Positions 17,423 to 27,105 of a stretch of DNA of 27,444 bases are shown here, piece after piece. The notes beneath the pieces were generated by a model. The model worked only from the letters and a program-made list of their open reading frames with translations, had not been told where the DNA came from and did no database searches. This DNA comes from an uncultured Candidatus Saccharibacteria bacterium. Lineage in GTDB: Bacteria; Patescibacteriota; Minisyncoccia; UBA6257; 2-01-FULL-56-20. Made by a program: the position numbers and the translations under genes. The stretch spans positions 1 through 27,444 of the forward strand of contig CAZTBQ010000002.1 in NCBI GenBank assembly GCA_964612445.1, written 5' to 3'. How positions within the stretch are numbered: the first letter of the stretch is position 1; each line of letters begins with the position of its first letter.

Positions 17423-18694
17423 ATGCAGAAATTATTACAGATATTCACTATAAAGGACTTGAGAAATAAGGTTTTGACCGTAATTGGCCTGCTTTTAGCT
17501 TTCAGGGTGCTGGCTTCTGTGCCGATTCCTGGGGTAGATGCGGTTCGCTTGGGTCAATTTTTAGGATCCAGCCAACTTTTTGGATTTTTAAACCTATTTT
17601 CTGGAGGAGGTCTTAGTAAGCTTTCTTTGGCGATGCTTGCAGTTGGTCCTTATATTACTTCGACAATTATCATGCAATTGTTGACTATTATCTTTCCTAA
17701 ATTTAAGCAATTATATTACGAAGAAGGAGCTCGCGGGCAGGCAAAATTCAATCAATATTCAAGAATGCTCGCTGTTCCGCTTGGAATGCTTCAAGCGTTT
17801 GGATTTTTGAACTTGCTTATTTCTCAACAGGTAATCGTTCGACCGGATTTCATGGGAATGCTAACCAACGTGCTGGCAATCACTGCTGGTTCGATGCTTG
17901 CTTTGTGGTTCGGTGAGTTGATTAGCGAACAGAAGATTGGTAACGGAATTTCGCTGATAATCTTAGCCGGTATCGTTAGCTCTATTCCGAGCGCGATAAA
18001 ATTGGCATTTGTTTCTTATACTTCCGGAATGCTTCCAGCTTATATCGCTTATGCGGTTATTTTCGCGGCGGTAATCATGGCGGTTGTGTATCTTAACGAA
18101 GGCGAAAGAAAAATTCCGATTGCGTATGCCCGCCGAATTCGTGGAAATAAAATGTATGGCGGAGCAACCAGCTACTTGCCACTCAAAGTAAACCAGGCAG
18201 GAATGATCCCGCTAATATTCGCAATTTCTGTTTTGCTTTTCCCGCAAATTTTTGCGCAGATAATGACGGCAATTATTCCTAATGTTGGAATAGCAATTAA
18301 TTCGTTTGTTACTAGAATGATGGCGAATCAGCTAATCTATGGAGCTTTGTATTTCACTTTGGTTGTTGCTTTCACATTTTTCTATTCAGCGATCACTTTC
18401 AATCCGGATGAAGTTTCAAAGAATTTGCAGAGAGGTGGAGGATTTGTGATGGGAATTCGCCCAGGAGAAGCCACTTCAGTTTTCTTTAAGAGAATATTGA
18501 ATCGAGTGAATCTTTCCGGTGCAGTGTTCTTGGGTTTGATCGCAATCTTGCCGATTATTGTTCAGCAGTTAACGGGACTTTCCGCGTTTCAGATGAGCGG
18601 TACTGCATTGCTCATTACTGTTGCGGTTGTTCTTGAGACTATGAGGCAGGTGAATTCGCAGATGACGATGCGCGGATACGAGGCGTTCAATTAA
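17423..18694 (+). CDS. secY: Preprotein translocase subunit SecY
   Basis: GPYITSTIIMQLL, GIGNG-like KIGNGISLII, LPLKVNQAGMIPLIFA, GIRPG; about ten hydrophobic segments. Confidence 0.99.
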   Translation: MQKLLQIFTIKDLRNKVLTVIGLLLAFRVLASVPIPGVDAVRLGQFLGSSQLFGFLNLFSGGGLSKLSLAMLAVGPYITSTIIMQLLTIIFPKFKQLYYEEGARGQAKFNQYSRMLAVPLGMLQAFGFLNLLISQQVIVRPDFMGMLTNVLAITAGSMLALWFGELISEQKIGNGISLIILAGIVSSIPSAIKLAFVSYTSGMLPAYIAYAVIFAAVIMAVVYLNEGERKIPIAYARRIRGNKMYGGATSYLPLKVNQAGMIPLIFAISVLLFPQIFAQIMTAIIPNVGIAINSFVTRMMANQLIYGALYFTLVVAFTFFYSAITFNPDEVSKNLQRGGGFVMGIRPGEATSVFFKRILNRVNLSGAVFLGLIAILPIIVQQLTGLSAFQMSGTALLITVAVVLETMRQVNSQMTMRGYEAFN

Positions 18695-18820
18695 CACTTC
18701 GGAGTGACCGGAGTCGCAAAACTCCAGCGGTTTTGCGCTCCTGTATCTCGACACAAAAACTTTTCCTTCGGAAAAGACCAATCTTTTTGTGTCTCCGATA
18801 CCCACTCCAAAGTGTTAATT
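18689..18820. repeat. Multi-branch palindromic element (family M), copy B
   Basis: AATTAACACTTCGGAGTG / CACTCCAAAGTGTTAATT outer arms; GGAGTCGCAAAAC-TCCAGCG-GTTTTGCGCTCC; GACACAAAAA[CTTTTCC-TTCG-GAAAAG]ACCAATC-TTTTTGTGTC. Confidence 0.7.
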
Positions 18821-18957
18821 TTCGCGTGGTGAAAAAAACAAAGGCGAGGCAGGCACCCCCAAGAAGAGGTTAATTTCGCTGTGAGAAATAATATAATAGC
18901 CGAGCTTTTTGTGCCTGCGATAGCCAGTTCAAAGCGTTAATTTTCGCTGAGTGAAGA

Positions 18958-18988
18958 AATAAAAAACACCAGAAATGGTGTTTTATTT
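18958..18988. terminator. Bidirectional-type terminator between secY and the convergent gene
   Basis: AAAACACCA-GAAA-TGGTGTTTT with flanking A and T tracts. Confidence 0.7.
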
Positions 18989-19330
18989 GGTTAGTTCATC
19001 CCAGGAATTTGTTCCGTAGCCTTCAACGAAAAGTCGATTTGCTCCTACTCTCATAATTGAGGCAATACTGCTAAATCTGTGTACGTTTCGGATAAGTTTC
19101 GAACCGTTCAGTTTTTTGCTGGTTTTGAATCTCGGTGCGCAATGAATGGAAACGTGGCGGTCTTTTTTAATTTTGAATTTATTGAGCCTTTGTCGGCATT
19201 TTTTAAGCAGAACTTTTTTTGCCGCTTTTTGATTGTCTGCTTCGAATTCAAAATGAAAATAAGCGAATCGTGAATCTGTTTGGTTCTTGTTCCATGAGTT
19301 AATAACGACTGTCGCGCTGTAGGTTGCCAA
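18983..19330 (-). CDS. Hypothetical protein (about 115 aa from TTG 19330; ORF-track ATG at 19381)
   Basis: AGGAGG 6 nt before the TTG, and a minus-strand promoter lying downstream of the 19381 ATG, favour the TTG start. Confidence 0.65.
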   Translation of the reverse strand: MATYSATVVINSWNKNQTDSRFAYFHFEFEADNQKAAKKVLLKKCRQRLNKFKIKKDRHVSIHCAPRFKTSKKLNGSKLIRNVHRFSSIASIMRVGANRLFVEGYGTNSWDELTK

Positions 19331-19360
19331 TGGACTCCTCCTTTTAATTAACTGTCTTAG

Positions 19361-19388
19361 AGTATACGCTTTTTTCGCCATTTTTCAA
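19361..19388 (-). promoter_or_regulatory. Promoter for the minus-strand hypothetical gene
   Basis: TTGAAA (19388-19383), 16-nt spacer, TATACT (19366-19361). Confidence 0.55.
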
Positions 19389-19410
19389 TTAATCGTGTAG
19401 AATGATAAAC

Positions 19411-19458
19411 ATGCAAAAAGTAGTAATTCTTTATGGGGCTCCGGCTTGCCGGCCGTAG
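19411..19458 (+). pseudogene. Diverged remnant of the adk 5' end (MQKVVILYGAP-ACRP-stop)
   Basis: 19411-19444 match adk 19515-19548 at 28/34 nt; 5 of the 6 differences are synonymous and one gives V/I. Confidence 0.75.
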
Positions 19459-19514
19459 CTTTAGCGAAGGGATAAGCTGCTAAATAATAACAAAGTCAAA
19501 ATTCAAAAAACATA

Positions 19515-20189
19515 ATGCAGAAAGTCATAATTTTATATGGAGCTCCGGGAAGCGGAAAAGGGACACAGGCTAATTTGTTGGCGTCTAAATTTGACCTGAT
19601 TCATTTTGATACCGGAAAATTTATGGAAGCTGTGGTTCACGATCCAAAGAACCAGAAGAATGTGGAGATAAAAGCCGAAAGAAAGCTTTTCGATGGCGGT
19701 AAATTAATGACACCTTCGTTTGTTCTTAAGGTTGTCGACAAGGAAGCAAGAGAAATTCACAAAGCCGGTTACGGGATTGTTTTTAGTGGATCTCCGAGGA
19801 CGATGTACGAAGCCGAGGGTTTGATGCCGGACCTGATTAAGCTTTATGGCAAAGAGAATATACATGTTTTTGTTTTGGATGTTCCTGCCGCGGAATCCAT
19901 AAAGCGAAATAGCAACAGAATGATGTGTAAGTTTTGCGGTTATGGATTATTGACTGCATATTATGATGTTAAAAATCCGAAACACTGTCCGGTTTGTGGT
20001 GGTCCATTTTATAAGAGAAGTCTAGATAATCTGGAGACAATCAAAGTTCGTCTCAAAGAATACAACGAAAGAACTGCGCCTATTTTTGGATACATGAAAA
20101 AGAATAAAATTAAGCAAGTAAAAATTGATGCTAAGCCAGCGCCATTCAAAGTTTTTGAGAAAATTGTCAAAGAATTGAAGATAAAATGA
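19515..20189 (+). CDS. adk: Adenylate kinase, long Zn-binding LID type
   Basis: GAPGSGKGTQA P-loop; CKFC...CPVC in the LID; R..D..E....RL..Y...T.P. Confidence 0.95.
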   Translation: MQKVIILYGAPGSGKGTQANLLASKFDLIHFDTGKFMEAVVHDPKNQKNVEIKAERKLFDGGKLMTPSFVLKVVDKEAREIHKAGYGIVFSGSPRTMYEAEGLMPDLIKLYGKENIHVFVLDVPAAESIKRNSNRMMCKFCGYGLLTAYYDVKNPKHCPVCGGPFYKRSLDNLETIKVRLKEYNERTAPIFGYMKKNKIKQVKIDAKPAPFKVFEKIVKELKIK

Positions 20190-20947
20190 TTAGTATAAAA
20201 AGCGAAGAAGAAATTAAAATAATGCGCGAGGCCGGCAGGAAGCTGGCTGGGGTTTTGGATATTTTAAAAACTTTTCCGCGAGAGGGAATGGCAACTATTG
20301 AGATTGATGAGTTTGCGAGAAAGTTGATAGAAGAGACGGGATCGAAGCCGGCATTTTTGGGATACAAACCATACGGAGCCGCTAGCCCGTATCCATTTAC
20401 TACCTGCATATCTGTTAATAGCACCGTAGTCCATGGATTGCCGTCCGATTATGTTTTACAAAGCGGCGATTTGTTAAAAATCGATTTAGGCTTAATCCAC
20501 GAAAAATATTATTCGGATATGGCAATTACTTTGCCGATAGGAACTGTGTCGGCGGAAGCAAAGAAATTAATAGCGGTTACCGAAGAAGCTTTGTATTTGG
20601 GAATAAAAGAAGTTCAGCCAGGAAAACATTTGGGTGATATTGGTTTTGCTATCCACTCTAGAGTTAAAAGCGCTGGATTTTCAATTGTAGACTCTTTGAC
20701 TGGTCATGGCATTGGCAAGAAGCTCCACGAAGATCCATATGTTTTTAATTTTGGAAAACCAGGGGAAGGTGAGAGGCTCGTGCCAGGAATGGTGCTAGCT
20801 TTGGAGCCGATGACGGCTTTGGGTAAGCGCGCCGTAAAACAATTGGATGACGATAGTTTTGTGACGGCGGATGATTCACTTTCGGCACATTTTGAACATA
20901 CGGTTTTGGTGACCGAGGGAGACCCGGAGATTTTGACCAAGCCATAA
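20186..20947 (+). CDS. map: Methionine aminopeptidase type I
   Basis: CISVNSTVVHGLP, DLG, GHGIG..LHEDP, EPM, SAHFEHT; ATGA overlap with the adk stop. Confidence 0.98.
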   Translation: MISIKSEEEIKIMREAGRKLAGVLDILKTFPREGMATIEIDEFARKLIEETGSKPAFLGYKPYGAASPYPFTTCISVNSTVVHGLPSDYVLQSGDLLKIDLGLIHEKYYSDMAITLPIGTVSAEAKKLIAVTEEALYLGIKEVQPGKHLGDIGFAIHSRVKSAGFSIVDSLTGHGIGKKLHEDPYVFNFGKPGEGERLVPGMVLALEPMTALGKRAVKQLDDDSFVTADDSLSAHFEHTVLVTEGDPEILTKP

Positions 20948-24156: not shown

Positions 24157-27105
24157 ATGAAGAAAATCTTTATTTTTGGTGGTTTGGCTATTTTGTTGGG
24201 TGTTGCGCTTTTTACCAGCCAAACAATTTTAGTTTATGGTCAGGCCTTTAATCAGGACGGAGATGATTGCTTTATGTCTCCGGCAGATGAAAGGTGTGAT
24301 ACGGTAATATATTCTCCTCGTGGCGGCGGCGGAGGGATGTCTTCTGGAGGATCGACCACTACTACGACAGAGCCGGGAGTTCTTGGTTTTTTAAATTTTT
24401 CTCCTGGATCAGTGGTTGACGGAGGGTCGTTTTCAATTAGACTTTCTGGCGCCGAAAGCATTCCGACCAATACCGTTACTCGCCTTTGGATTGATCCAGA
24501 GAATACGGGAAGTTTTAAAAATTTTGGAACATGGCTTACGGTTGGGGAGTTGCGGTCCGGTATTTCTCGCAAATTAACTTGTTCTTCGTATTCTAGCTAT
24601 GACCCTTCTGGGGCTCAGAATATTTCTGGAAAAAAGTTAAATCAAAGAATTTTTATTTCTTATGAAGGACTTGGATATGGCTCAGAGATCTCGCTTCACA
24701 CGAAAGATTGTTCATCTTCGGGATCCGGCACAACTGGACCTTCCTCTCCGTCTGGTGGTTCTTCGGGGTCAGCGGCATGTTTGGTTTCTCCTGGATCAAT
24801 TAGTATTTCGCAAGGTGGAACTGCAAATTTATCAGTTTCAACTTCAAGAACTTCAACTAGCGGAGATTTAGTTTATGTTAACGCAATTGGTTTTCCGACA
24901 GGGTCATATTCTTCTTTGGGGAATGGACAGGTTATTGATGCCGGTAAGACACGAAAAGATTTTCAAGTTTTTTCAACAAATAATGCCAATCGAGGACAAG
25001 CTCAATTTACAGTTTATTGCTCAACTGGATGTCCGGTTTCTGGATGTCCATCGGGAGGAGCTCCCGAAGTTTTGGGTTCTGCTCAGGTTTCTATTAATGT
25101 GACTGGTAGTAATCCAGAGCCAGTTGTTGGAGGAGGAAGTAGCGGGGGATCTTCTGGATCCGGAAGCGATGCTTGTCGTGTGGGTAGTTTGATTCTGCCT
25201 CCGAATAGTAGCGATAGGACCGATATAGGTTTTGATGAGACAGAAAATAATATTAGTTTCTCGGCTACTCCGATTGGCTCCGGAATAAGTAGTGTATCTG
25301 CATATCCGAACATAAAAATTGCAAGGGTGCAAAACGGATCCGGAAGAGAGGTGCCGATTGTGCATGTAAAAACTTCTAATGATTTTTCCGGACAGTCTTC
25401 TTATAATTTGGCGTGTAATTATGAAAGTAATCGTCTTGCTGCGGTTGGGATGATATCAACACCGGCGGTTTCGAATCCGGCCGGAAAAGTTAAACTTTCC
25501 CAGATGGAGGATTTAAAAGAAATTTTATTCCCAAGTTCTGTGTGTAATTTTAACGTAAAGGGTTGCAGGTCTGGTTTTTTCTCTAGATCTCCATTATTTG
25601 TTATAGCCAATGCTACGCCTCCTGCTTTGGTTGGTGCTGACATGATTGCCTTGAGTCCGGCTCCGGCAAAAGGTAATACTGCTCATCCGCGGTTATTTAA
25701 TTTGTCTAATCCTTTGCGTCCAACTGATTCAGGGCTAACCGGTCAGATTCGAGCGGGCGGTGATTATGATACTGCTGGTGATTTTGGTGCATATTTGGCG
25801 ATGGAGGGTGCTGCTTACAGTAAAGACAAGACTATATGGGCTGGACTAAGTAGTCAGGGGAATATTTATGTTTGGAAAGACGGAAAAAGATATGAAGATT
25901 GGGGTGGCTCTGGATCTAGGCAGATATATGGAATAATTAAATATGGATTTAGCTACATATTATTAACCCATTCGGGGTCTTATGATATTACGAATGGTAT
26001 GACTCCTGTGGATTCAGGAATAGATGCTCTTTCTGGAAATATGTGGCGCAGGGATAGATTAAATGCTGCACCCGCCGGATTTCCGGATATGCCTAACGGA
26101 GAAAAGATTATTTTGGGGGATGATAAACATATTTTAGCGATCGTCACAGGCACGGCTTATGGACAGCCGGCGCAAAATAGAAGATTGGCAGTGTATTCGG
26201 CAGACAGTTCTAATGTTGTTGCTGAGCAGACGCTTCCATATGCGGACGGGTCGGAAAAGTTCGGAACAATTCCAGTCCAGGGCGGTGAATATCTGTATGT
26301 GCTTAGAGCGCCTAAGTATACTTCCGCTACGGACCGCGCTCTTTACGGACCACAATTCGCAACGGTATATAAATTTGACTACGCGACTAAAAAAATAACC
26401 GAGATTGCAAAAGATGTCGCTTTAGCCCCTGGATATGTATCTGCAAATGTGGCTTTTGGGGCAAATACCCCAAATCCTGGAATAGTGGTTTCCAGTTTTA
26501 CTTATCCAGCCGGAAGCTTTGATGTCCAAGAAGCAAAAATTCAGGTTTATTTAATTTCGGATTTGGCCCAAGGAAAGGGGATTGATGTGTTATCTAATTC
26601 TCCAACATGGAAAGATGATACTCATCGAATGATGCAGGCTGCATCTCTTACTGTTGGTGGAGCGACATATGTTTATTCCGACGACGCTAGAGTTTATAAA
26701 TTGGAAATGGGAACGGCCACTTCCGATGGATCTACGAATCCGCCAACAACTACTCCGCCAGCTGGAGGTGGCACAACCTCAACCACTCCAACTTATGATT
26801 GTGCTTTTGATTTAACATTTACTCCGGCTAGCTTAACAGTGAAGCAGGGGACATATTATGCAAGCTATACCGTAAAGGCAAATAGCACGAGCGTTAATCC
26901 ATTTTGCACAATTAGCATAATTCCACCGAGTCAGAATAATATTCGCTCCGATTATATGAGTAGCTTAGTAGTTTCTCCGAATGGGCAAGCAAGTATGTTG
27001 TTGAACGTCTCTAAGGCTGCTAAAGGGTCATATGTACTTCCAGTTAAAGCTGCAGCTAAGGGTGTTCCAGTTAAAACATATAATGTTAATCTGACGATAC
27101 AATAA
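24157..27105 (+). CDS. Large secreted/surface protein (982 aa) with Ser/Gly/Thr/Pro linkers and Ig-like modules
   Basis: Signal peptide MKKIFIFGGLAILLGVALF; low-complexity linkers; modules starting CLVSPGSISISQGGTANLSV and FDLTFTPASLTVKQGTYYASYTV; Cys-rich N-terminal half. Confidence 0.85.
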   Translation: MKKIFIFGGLAILLGVALFTSQTILVYGQAFNQDGDDCFMSPADERCDTVIYSPRGGGGGMSSGGSTTTTTEPGVLGFLNFSPGSVVDGGSFSIRLSGAESIPTNTVTRLWIDPENTGSFKNFGTWLTVGELRSGISRKLTCSSYSSYDPSGAQNISGKKLNQRIFISYEGLGYGSEISLHTKDCSSSGSGTTGPSSPSGGSSGSAACLVSPGSISISQGGTANLSVSTSRTSTSGDLVYVNAIGFPTGSYSSLGNGQVIDAGKTRKDFQVFSTNNANRGQAQFTVYCSTGCPVSGCPSGGAPEVLGSAQVSINVTGSNPEPVVGGGSSGGSSGSGSDACRVGSLILPPNSSDRTDIGFDETENNISFSATPIGSGISSVSAYPNIKIARVQNGSGREVPIVHVKTSNDFSGQSSYNLACNYESNRLAAVGMISTPAVSNPAGKVKLSQMEDLKEILFPSSVCNFNVKGCRSGFFSRSPLFVIANATPPALVGADMIALSPAPAKGNTAHPRLFNLSNPLRPTDSGLTGQIRAGGDYDTAGDFGAYLAMEGAAYSKDKTIWAGLSSQGNIYVWKDGKRYEDWGGSGSRQIYGIIKYGFSYILLTHSGSYDITNGMTPVDSGIDALSGNMWRRDRLNAAPAGFPDMPNGEKIILGDDKHILAIVTGTAYGQPAQNRRLAVYSADSSNVVAEQTLPYADGSEKFGTIPVQGGEYLYVLRAPKYTSATDRALYGPQFATVYKFDYATKKITEIAKDVALAPGYVSANVAFGANTPNPGIVVSSFTYPAGSFDVQEAKIQVYLISDLAQGKGIDVLSNSPTWKDDTHRMMQAASLTVGGATYVYSDDARVYKLEMGTATSDGSTNPPTTTPPAGGGTTSTTPTYDCAFDLTFTPASLTVKQGTYYASYTVKANSTSVNPFCTISIIPPSQNNIRSDYMSSLVVSPNGQASMLLNVSKAAKGSYVLPVKAAAKGVPVKTYNVNLTIQ

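What the first reader, a model, noticed from the sequence alone, without database searches (positions are those of the whole stretch)
19398..19548. Orphaned, synonymously diverged first 11 codons of adk 104 nt upstream of intact adk
Seen: ATG CAA AAA GTA GTA ATT CTT TAT GGG GCT CCG G (19411) versus ATG CAG AAA GTC ATA ATT TTA TAT GGA GCT CCG G (19515): 28/34 nt identical, five silent differences and one V/I. The upstream copy lies 7 nt after a TAGAAT -10 box and breaks into a REP-like stretch (CCGTAGCTTTAGCGAAGG), stopping after 15 codons. Inference: both copies were selected as Adk protein while diverging, so this is not a simple decayed duplication. It fits a scar where incoming DNA from a related lineage replaced adk or supplied a new 5' end, or a retained leader peptide that controls adk-map.
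Basis: partly seen in the sequence, partly recalled or inferred. Interest (0 to 1): 0.7.

Follow-up and report, generated by a model that had tools for sequence, protein, structure and literature searches.

The report
Stranded original start of adk gene
A 34-base copy of the beginning of the adenylate kinase gene sits 104 bases upstream of the working gene in this ultra-small bacterium. It is the gene's original start, cut off when a stretch carrying part of a hairpin and a second start came to lie between it and the gene, and it has stayed almost unchanged in three related lineages, so it is an old recombination-type scar that probably now works as the leader of the adk message.

Summary
19411-19444 and 19515-19548 match at 28 of 34 bases, and no shuffle of the spacer comes close. 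It is not an assembly artefact: contigs from three other studies bridge it, and two more lineages of the same genus (G001, L217-220) carry the same layout.

The upstream copy keeps the native context, a -10 box 6-7 nt before ATG. Single-copy relatives (L069, L216, L221, L222) use exactly this sequence as their real adk start. L216, about 1-2% diverged from L217, lacks exactly the 104 nt, so the duplication is old and is lost repeatedly by deletion between the repeats.

The "REP-like" stretch is the 5' part of a 30-nt hairpin repeat found in many phyla. The same layout (orphan gene end, hairpin, 34-45 nt, intact gene) recurs at adk in a sister genus, at three tRNA genes and at an aldehyde dehydrogenase gene.

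The best reading is a scar of one-sided (homology-facilitated illegitimate type) recombination with a diverged allele, later kept as a 5' leader. Orphan and half hairpin are 91-97% identical between lineages whose neutral sites are about 55% identical.

After the event the orphan was not selected as Adk. A regulatory leader peptide is unsupported. This scan has noted similar scars on other DNA.

The parts
17423..18694 (+). secY, the last gene of the ribosomal-protein operon before the variable spacer
   Evidence: Pfam SecY, E=1.4e-91
18963..18984 (.). Two-way terminator-like hairpin directly behind the minus-strand gene. It should cut adk off from read-through out of secY.
   Evidence: Terminator scan finds it on both strands
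18983..19330 (-). Small gene of unknown function (listed as ORF132). It is probably 115 aa, starting at TTG 19330, with AGGAGG (19337-19342, read on the minus strand) 6 nt upstream.
   Evidence: ORF list. Family alignment A4, with 108-118-aa relatives at the same place in G001 (two copies), L069, L216/L217, L071 and G192. Profile search finds 43 clusters. No Pfam match and no PDB fold match.
19361..19388 (-). Promoter-like site for the small gene: TTGAAA, 16 nt, TATACT
   Evidence: Promoter scan, 10 of 12 matches. Conserved in G001 and L217.
19375..19403 (+). Promoter-like site TCGCCA, 17 nt, TAGAAT. Its -10 box ends 7 nt before the orphan ATG, which is leaderless-type geometry.
   Evidence: Promoter scan. 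A TAnnnT hexamer lies 6-7 nt before the orphan ATG in G001, L217 and L071, and before the real ATG in the single-copy relatives L069, L216, L221, L222, L226, L224 and L223.
19411..19444 (+). Orphan: the original first 34 nt of adk
   Evidence: Repeat D3. 34/34 identical to the real adk start of L069. 91-97% identical between G000, G001 and L217.
19411..19458 (+). 15-codon frame (MQKVVILYGAPACRP, stop TAG) that starts at the orphan ATG
   Evidence: Read from the sequence. Same length and same stop in G001 and L217; G001 has A10T and P11T.
19445..19470 (+). 5' part (CTTG, left arm, loop) of a dispersed 30-nt hairpin repeat. The right arm is missing here.
   Evidence: With up to 3 mismatches it is found in 28 of 151 genomes of the order, and in 0 with the reversed control pattern. 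The loop sequence with complementary arms occurs in many phyla. 26/26 identical in G000, G001 and L217.
19419..19481 (+). Predicted imperfect stem-loop in which the orphan pairs with the half hairpin
   Evidence: MFE -23.9 kcal/mol, z=-1.4. The equivalent fold appears in G001 (z=-1.6) and L217 (z=-2.3). No pair changes on both sides.
19471..19514 (+). A-rich spacer, the least conserved part
   Evidence: 55-75% identity between lineages. No significant similarity to the spacer of the sister genus.
19515..20189 (+). Intact adk. Its first 34 nt (19515-19548) are the second copy.
   Evidence: Pfam ADK, E=2.8e-22. 84-92% amino-acid identity to relatives.
20186..20947 (+). map (methionine aminopeptidase), overlapping the end of adk
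   Evidence: Pfam Peptidase_M24, E=5.9e-45

Best explanation
The upstream copy is the original start of adk, still attached to its own promoter. In this group adk normally begins 6-7 nt after a -10 box, which suggests a leaderless message.

Inferred origin. In an ancestor of this genus, DNA carrying a diverged adk allele recombined in. That allele brought its own upstream flank: a copy of a widespread 30-nt hairpin repeat followed by about 40 nt. The join was homologous on the gene side. On the other side it was illegitimate, at the outer base of the hairpin, inside resident codon 11/12. This left: resident promoter, the first 11 resident codons (the orphan), the hairpin, the donor flank, and then a complete adk.

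Shown. The arrangement predates the split of at least three lineages. It is lost again and again by deletion between the two repeats, which restores a single adk with the orphan-type start.

Inferred present role. Where the arrangement is kept, the orphan and the half hairpin are under strong nucleotide-level constraint. They most likely form the 5' end of the adk-map transcript: a 15-codon leaderless mini-frame folded against the half hairpin. adk itself is then translated like the many genes of this genome that have A-rich upstream sequence and no Shine-Dalgarno site.
For: Reality and age:
- The repeat is real.
- It is bridged by independent assemblies.
- It is shared by G001 and L217-220 with the same truncated hairpin.

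The orphan is the original start:
- Single-copy relatives have the orphan-type sequence directly behind the same -10 box. L069 matches 34/34. L216, L221, L222 and, in the sister genus, L226/L227 show the same.

Loss by deletion:
- L216 is 95-99% identical to L217 along adk and lacks exactly the 104 nt.
- L217's second copy already carries the old differences (ATA, TTA) that it shares with G000 and G001. The two-copy state is therefore old and L216 is derived.

Tree:
- Two-copy and single-copy lineages are interleaved.

Constraint:
- Orphan 91-97% and half hairpin 93-96% identical between lineages.
- Compare 54-56% at adk third codon positions, 49-53% in the neighbouring small gene and 55-75% in the spacer.

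Recombination-type origin:
- Similarity starts at the gene boundary in every case.
- Differences between copies are biased to silent sites: adk here P=0.003, adk in the sister genus P=0.006, and L114 (stop codon kept) P=0.002.
- The spacers of different cases are unrelated, so they are not part of one mobile element.
- In the sister genus the spacer carries its own TAAAAT 6-7 nt before the second ATG, as a donor promoter would.
- The secY-adk spacer is hypervariable, so homology is missing on that side.
- Adk is 70-73% identical within a genus whose SecY and Map are 92-97% identical.

Recurrence of the layout at this hairpin:
- 6 independent cases in about 185 copies, against 9 in 3000 random positions, 4 of which are the adk loci themselves.

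Established mechanism:
- One-sided homologous plus illegitimate integration, and partial duplications of the target, are documented (PMC3240628).
Against: - No donor lineage was found, that is, one with a complete hairpin about 40 nt before an adk that has the second-copy type of start.
- The adk body shows no mosaic pattern.
- At the base of the genus only three differences separate the copies, and these alone are not significantly silent-biased (P=0.15).
- The silent bias could also come from change in the working copy alone while the orphan is held constant for another reason.
- The model does not compellingly explain why the join is always exactly at the hairpin base, nor why the intact gene always lies 34-45 nt beyond it.
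- The proposed stem-loop has weak z-scores (-1.4 to -2.3) and no pair changed on both sides.
- No transcript data were examined, so the transcription start and the leader role are inferred.
Confidence: 0.55

Rival explanations
1. In-place event driven by the hairpin repeat itself. A tiny gene-less hairpin insert entered adk at codon 11/12 (codon 8/9 in the sister genus). Its insertion duplicated the target from the gene's first base onward. Only products that rebuilt an intact essential gene survived.
For: - The orphan abuts the hairpin directly in all cases, and the distance on the other side is narrow, 34-45 nt.
- The layout recurs at adk in two sister genera with different junction codons and different hairpin arms.
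- It is enriched over random positions.
- An earlier, unchecked note of this scan (e1-3323113) reports hairpin inserts that copy tRNA ends.
Against: - The second copy is not adjacent to the hairpin. It lies 34-45 nt away, so the insert would have to include the spacer, yet the spacers of different cases are unrelated.
- Multi-copy genomes share only the 30-nt hairpin.
- Most hairpin copies show no flanking duplication.
- A fresh target duplication would be identical. The L114 copies differ at 10 of 39 nt in a coding-like way, with the stop codon kept.
Confidence: 0.25
2. The upstream 15-codon frame is a regulatory leader peptide, and translation of it controls adk-map expression (attenuation or coupling). 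Its likeness to Adk is a by-product of how it arose.
For: - A 15-codon frame with the same stop is kept in G000, G001 and L217.
- It begins at a leaderless-type start.
- The region is strongly conserved.
- A stem-loop can form over its 3' half.
Against: - Conservation includes third codon positions, so it acts on nucleotides and not on the peptide.
- G001 changes two of the residues.
- No U-tract follows the stem, and no alternative terminator/antiterminator pair is evident.
- In the sister genus the frame has a different length, 26 codons (read by me from the L071 sequence printed).
- Four or more relatives do without it.
Confidence: 0.12
3. Assembly artefact: reads of two strains were merged into a false tandem.
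For: This is a metagenome-assembled genome of 60 contigs. A second adk-start variant occurs in the same samples (records 3 and 7).
Against: Contigs of three other studies bridge orphan, half hairpin, spacer and adk without differences. The same structure occurs in G001 and in four contigs of another lineage.
Confidence: 0.01

Closest known systems
Scars of homology-facilitated illegitimate recombination and related one-sided integrations (PMC3240628)
   Same: One end of the incoming DNA is anchored by homology in the gene, the other joins illegitimately, and part of the target can end up duplicated.
   Different: The scar here is only 104 nt. It is old, shared by several lineages and strongly conserved. 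Its illegitimate joint lies at the base of a particular hairpin repeat. No donor is known, and the mechanism is inferred from sequence only.
Displaced 'orphan' gene ends in polymorphic-toxin and T6SS effector/immunity arrays (for example Vibrio cholerae, PMC5361080, listed and not read; otherwise from my own knowledge)
   Same: An incoming allele replaces one end of a gene and pushes the old end aside, where it persists as a fragment that shares a short conserved stretch with the working gene.
   Different: Those cases involve 3' ends of toxin genes with whole immunity genes and serve diversification. Here it is the first 11 codons of a housekeeping gene, with no cargo.
attL/attR duplications left by integrase elements at tRNA gene ends (my own knowledge)
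   Same: A direct repeat of a gene end is bounded exactly by the end of the gene, and the intact gene is rebuilt on one side.
   Different: Only 70-75 nt lie between the repeats, there is no integrase, and the sequence between them is unrelated from case to case.
Leader peptides and upstream ORFs of attenuators (my own knowledge)
   Same: A short conserved frame and a stem-loop lie ahead of the gene.
   Different: There are no regulatory codons, no terminator U-tract, and the peptide itself is not conserved. Relatives lack it.
Small palindromic repeats such as REP/BIME and the Rickettsia palindromic elements that sit in frame inside genes (my own knowledge)
   Same: For the hairpin only: it is short, dispersed, has compensating arm changes, and is found both between genes and in frame within genes.
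   Different: The loop sequence is shared across phyla, there are few copies per genome, and no linked transposase was looked for. No paper in the library holds the sequence and there is no Rfam match.

Membership tests
One-sided (homology-facilitated illegitimate type) recombination scar | Direct partial duplication of the target gene end around a heterologous segment | tested here: met
   28/34 repeat around 70 nt of unrelated sequence
One-sided (homology-facilitated illegitimate type) recombination scar | The two copies come from different alleles, meaning they had diverged before the event | tested here: inconclusive
   Silent-site bias is P=0.003 for all six differences but P=0.15 for the three that are basal to the genus. 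The analogous cases are clearer: P=0.006 and 0.002.
One-sided (homology-facilitated illegitimate type) recombination scar | An identifiable donor allele, or a mosaic gene body | tested here: not met
   No relative has the hairpin before adk without an orphan. No mosaic pattern along adk.
One-sided (homology-facilitated illegitimate type) recombination scar | Microhomology at the illegitimate joint | tested here: inconclusive
   The joint is at CCGG/CTTG. Many hairpin copies are preceded by GG, so 2-4 nt of microhomology is possible, but the donor is unknown.
Leader-peptide attenuator | Conserved short ORF upstream of the regulated gene | tested here: met
   15 codons with the same stop in three lineages
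Leader-peptide attenuator | Terminator and antiterminator alternatives with a U-tract | tested here: not met
   The terminator scan finds none between 19411 and 19514. The fold gives one stem followed by A-rich sequence.
Leader-peptide attenuator | Selection on the peptide or on diagnostic codons | tested here: not met
   Third positions are invariant. The only changes in G001 are mostly replacements.
Leaderless gene start | A -10-like hexamer 6-8 nt before the start codon and no Shine-Dalgarno site | tested here: met
   TAnnnT lies 6-7 nt before the orphan ATG or before the single-copy adk ATG in ten lineages. The same geometry occurs at 24157 and 21296.
Leaderless gene start | A mapped transcript 5' end at the start codon | not testable with these tools
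Miniature mobile element (MITE-like) with target-site duplication | The same element sequence at many sites, flanked by adjacent duplications of fixed length | tested here: not met
   Only the 30-nt hairpin is shared. Spacers are unrelated. Duplications measure 14-39 nt and are not adjacent on one side. There is no general left/right flank identity.
Integrase att-site duplication | An integrase-bearing element, or a recognisable remnant of one, between the repeats | tested here: not met
   70 nt lie between the repeats, with no ORF

The most novel reading that the evidence does not exclude
The cross-phylum 30-nt hairpin is not a passive landmark. It would be the substrate of a hairpin-specific cutting or joining activity that repeatedly creates gene-end duplications at a set distance of about 40 nt. 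In this genus one such product would have been domesticated as a structured leader with a leaderless mini-frame that sets adk-map expression, and populations would shed it by precise deletion.
Probability: 0.15. Interest if true: 0.75.

Novelty: new variant of a known kind. Interest (0 to 1): 0.5.

Why it matters
- It gives a dated, multi-lineage example of how an essential, probably leaderless gene in a reduced genome survived a hit in its first codons. It kept both starts, and the leftover was then conserved instead of decaying.
- It shows, with a natural before/after pair (L217 and L216), that such scars revert by deletion between short repeats.
- It links a hairpin repeat that has no Rfam match and whose sequence appears in no paper of the searched library, and that is shared across bacterial phyla, to duplicated gene ends at adk, at tRNA genes and at an enzyme gene. 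This is a testable lead on how DNA ends are defined during recombination in bacteria that are thought to depend on DNA uptake.
- For annotation, short frames that mimic gene starts in front of housekeeping genes of these bacteria should not be called as genes or as leader peptides without further evidence.

Tried and rejected
- Rfam at gathering and at E-value thresholds on the window, on the spacer and on a complete hairpin copy gave nothing meaningful. No tRNA genes lie in the window.
- A literature search for the hairpin sequence found no paper.
- A word-based homolog search for the small neighbouring gene found only its own cluster. The profile search found 43 clusters but no annotation. 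The structure model (pLDDT 76) has no PDB match at E<=0.001. Pfam VirE2 at 21 bits is below its cut-off and was taken as noise.
- I tested whether the hairpin arms are copies of the target (left flank equal to right arm). That holds in a few copies (L038, L088, L143, L157) but not in general: mean 2.0 against 1.6 matches of 6 in the control.
- A common origin of the two-copy state in both genera could not be decided. The spacers show no significant similarity and the short starts give conflicting characters.
- I looked for a mosaic in adk that would mark a donor segment and saw none.
- G192 may be a decayed two-copy state: a -10 box, then a remodelled 58 nt, then a second-copy-type start. The alignment is too weak to claim this.
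- RNA structure: the 135-nt leader gives z=-0.32. The local stem gives -1.4 to -2.3, and no pair changes on both sides.
- A simple tandem duplication of promoter plus start is unsupported. The flank before the second copy does not resemble the flank before the orphan (by eye, from the sequences).

Full report
**Setting**

The window is one contig of a 567-kb, 60-contig genome of an ultra-small bacterium. It carries the ribosomal-protein operon. Relatives of its Adk are labelled Parcubacteria or Patescibacteria group by their sources.

secY ends at 18694 and adk starts at 19515. The 820 nt between them hold:
- a repeat region noted earlier in this scan;
- a two-way terminator-like hairpin (18963-18984);
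- a small minus-strand gene;
- a divergent promoter region;
- the finding itself.

**Observation**

The repeat search lists 19411-19444 and 19515-19548 as a 34-nt direct repeat at 82% identity. No Markov shuffle of the spacer out of 3000 exceeded 23/34.

The upstream copy starts 7 nt after TAGAAT.

Logan contigs of three independent studies run from the orphan across that stretch and the spacer into adk, with at most one differing base each. A strain-chimeric assembly is therefore excluded.

**Relatives**

A SecY+Adk+Map tree gives two sister clades:
- Genus A: (G001, (G000, L069)).
- Genus B: (G004, (G192, (L070, L071))).

Further contigs found through Adk homologs add lineages L216, L217-220, L221 and L222 to genus A, and L223-L227 to genus B.

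G001 and L217-220 have the same layout as the window, with the same truncated hairpin. L069, L216, L221 and L222 have a single adk. Its first 34 nt are of the orphan type (L069 matches 34/34) and sit 7 nt after the same -10 box. The orphan is therefore the original start in its native context.

In the adk DNA tree, two-copy and single-copy lineages are interleaved. L216 and L217 are 95-99% identical along adk and identical upstream, but L216 lacks exactly the 104 nt.

L217's second copy carries the differences (codon 5 ATA, codon 7 TTA) that it shares with the second copies of G000 and G001. The two-copy state is therefore old and L216 is a recent deletion product. In L217 the two copies share a perfect 13-nt stretch at their ends, which offers a simple slippage or recombination path for the deletion. 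That path is my inference.

**What selection acted on**

Since the lineages split:
- The real copies changed six times, all silent.
- The orphan changed three times: one silent, and two replacements in G001 (A10T, P11T) that abolish the P-loop motif.

The orphan has therefore not been kept as Adk. Yet it is not decaying. Pairwise identity between G000, G001 and L217 is:

| Region | Identity |
|---|---|
| Orphan | 91-97% |
| Half hairpin | 93-96% (26/26 apart from an indel at its edge) |
| Promoter region | 82-86% |
| adk third codon positions | 54-56% |
| Neighbouring small gene | 49-53% |
| Spacer | 55-75% |

This is nucleotide-level constraint. A stem-loop in which the orphan pairs with the half hairpin is predicted in all three lineages. 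The three G001 changes keep or improve pairing in its fold: C to A at leader position 31 makes an A-U pair with U46. The z-scores are modest, however, and no pair changes on both sides, so the structure is a hypothesis.

Most genes in the window lack a Shine-Dalgarno site and have A-rich upstream sequence, as the real adk start does. Two other genes (24157, 21296) have a TATAAT box 6-8 nt before their ATG. A TA-rich -10-like signal close to the start codon as a mark of leaderless genes is known to me from the literature. PMC3160421 is on that subject, but I only saw its abstract.

**The hairpin**

The stretch 19445-19470 is the left part of a roughly 30-nt unit: CTTG, a 6-nt arm, a conserved loop, and the complementary arm.
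- With up to three mismatches it occurs in 28 of 151 genomes of the order, often several times. The reversed control pattern gives none.
- Arm changes are compensating, for example CCCGCC/GGCGGG, CCCTCC/GGAGGG and CCGGCC/GGCCGG.
- An exact 18-nt loop pattern hits at least 119 stretches in a collection of 185,579 species genomes. They come from Patescibacteria, Bacteroidota, Alphaproteobacteria (isolates included), Verrucomicrobiota and others.
- I estimate about 35 chance hits for that much DNA, but 138 of 162 copies have 5 or 6 of 6 complementary arm positions.
- Copies lie between genes, next to tRNA genes, and in frame inside coding regions.
- The sequence is in no paper of the library and matches no Rfam family.

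**A recurrent layout**

I screened about 185 copies for a flank copy that abuts the hairpin and recurs beyond it. The layout "orphan gene end, hairpin, 34-45 nt, intact gene end" turned up at:
- adk in genus A;
- adk in genus B (L070/L071: 8 codons, a complete hairpin, then a spacer with its own TAAAAT 7 nt before the second ATG);
- tRNA-Ser(gct), first 14 nt (L021);
- tRNA-Ser(gga), last 16 nt (L198);
- tRNA-Leu(gag), first 12 nt plus 3 (L167);
- the last 13 codons, stop included, of an aldehyde dehydrogenase gene (L114).

Random positions in the same loci gave 9 such hits in 3000, four of which were the adk loci themselves.

In every case the similarity begins within 0-3 nt of the gene boundary. 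The spacers are unrelated between cases.

The copies differ in a coding-like way:

| Case | Differences between copies | P |
|---|---|---|
| L114 | 10 nt, 3 residue changes, stop kept | 0.002 |
| adk, genus B | 3 silent | 0.006 |
| adk, this window | 5 silent plus V/I | 0.003 |

**Reading**

These features fit recombination between diverged alleles better than an insertion with target duplication.
- Conserved gene sequence is similar between donor and recipient while their flanks are not. This explains the exact gene boundaries of the repeats and the unrelated spacers.
- The hypervariable secY-adk spacer, 7 to 1380 nt in the family and often holding small minus-strand genes, removes homology on the upstream side. 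An incoming adk allele could then be anchored only within the gene.
- One-sided homologous plus illegitimate integration, and partial target duplications, are documented (PMC3240628).
- Adk is only 70-73% identical between G004 and G192/L070, whose SecY and Map are 92-97% identical. That fits allele replacement or fast evolution at this gene.

What the model does not explain well is why the joint lies at the hairpin base every time, and why the distance on the far side is so narrow. A hairpin that blocks exonuclease or attracts cleavage at the end of the incoming DNA, sitting just outside a core promoter or gene end, is my inference only.

The rival, a hairpin-driven insertion with long target duplication, keeps a quarter of the odds.

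**Earlier notes of this scan**

Notes on other DNA describe similar scars. Examples are a duplicated glyQS start in another ultra-small bacterium, a duplicated mntP start, and hairpin inserts that copy tRNA ends in an archaeon. I did not check them. They agree that such scars are not rare.

What sets this one apart:
- its age and conservation;
- the natural deletion revertants;
- the link to one cross-phylum hairpin.

**Verdict**

The claims of continuing Adk selection on the orphan and of a regulatory leader peptide are not supported. The present function, as a conserved 5' leader, is inferred and needs transcript data.

Noticed in passing
window 18983-19381 (-): The 132-aa ORF is probably a 115-aa protein starting at TTG 19330 behind a strong AGGAGG. 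This is one of the few Shine-Dalgarno sites in the window. It belongs to a small family (43 clusters at E<=0.001) with no Pfam match and no PDB fold match. It evolves fast: 34-43% amino-acid identity within the genus. Two copies lie in tandem in G001. Distant members sit in unrelated contexts.
   Followed up: partly
secY-adk spacer in loci L039-L068: The spacer between secY and adk ranges from 7 to 1380 nt in this family and often holds different small minus-strand ORFs. It is a hot spot for inserted material inside the ribosomal-protein operon.
   Followed up: partly
L042 (G004) against L041 (G192) and L070/L071: Adk is only 70-73% identical within a genus whose SecY is 97% and Map 92-93% identical. 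G004 Adk has a long branch. Either the allele was replaced or evolution was accelerated.
   Followed up: partly
L095, L038 and other loci: The 30-nt hairpin repeat lies in frame inside coding regions, for example in a zinc-finger region of a topoisomerase-like gene and in the N-terminal extension of what I read as ribosomal protein S11 (both gene identities read by eye from translations, not searched). Its length is a multiple of three and four of its six frames are open.
   Followed up: partly
L163, L201, L151 (Bacteroidales contigs): Copies of the same hairpin are embedded inside arrays of short tandem repeats (heptamer-like units).
   Followed up: no
L114:4150-4330: In a Verrucomicrobiae contig the last 13 codons of an aldehyde dehydrogenase gene, stop included, recur directly after the hairpin. 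The copy has 10 base differences but only 3 residue changes. The hairpin plus the TTTTT of the orphan looks like a terminator.
   Followed up: partly
window 18778-18842 and 18900-18964; G000 contig C16 6429-6473: A 65-nt direct repeat (78% identity) lies behind secY, with an 89% match elsewhere in the genome.
   Followed up: no
window starts listed (e.g. 24157, 21296): Most genes lack a Shine-Dalgarno site and have A-rich upstream sequence. At 24157 and 21296 a TATAAT box lies 6-8 nt before ATG, which suggests further leaderless genes.
   Followed up: no
G192 contigs C23, C6, C4: Besides a full adk, two partial adk matches (residues 1-109 and 92-222, 75-80% identity) lie on other contigs of this genome. 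This points to strain mixture or fragments.
   Followed up: no
window 19437: G to A (GGG to GGA in the orphan) in contigs of three other studies. It is the same state as in G001 and L217.
   Followed up: no
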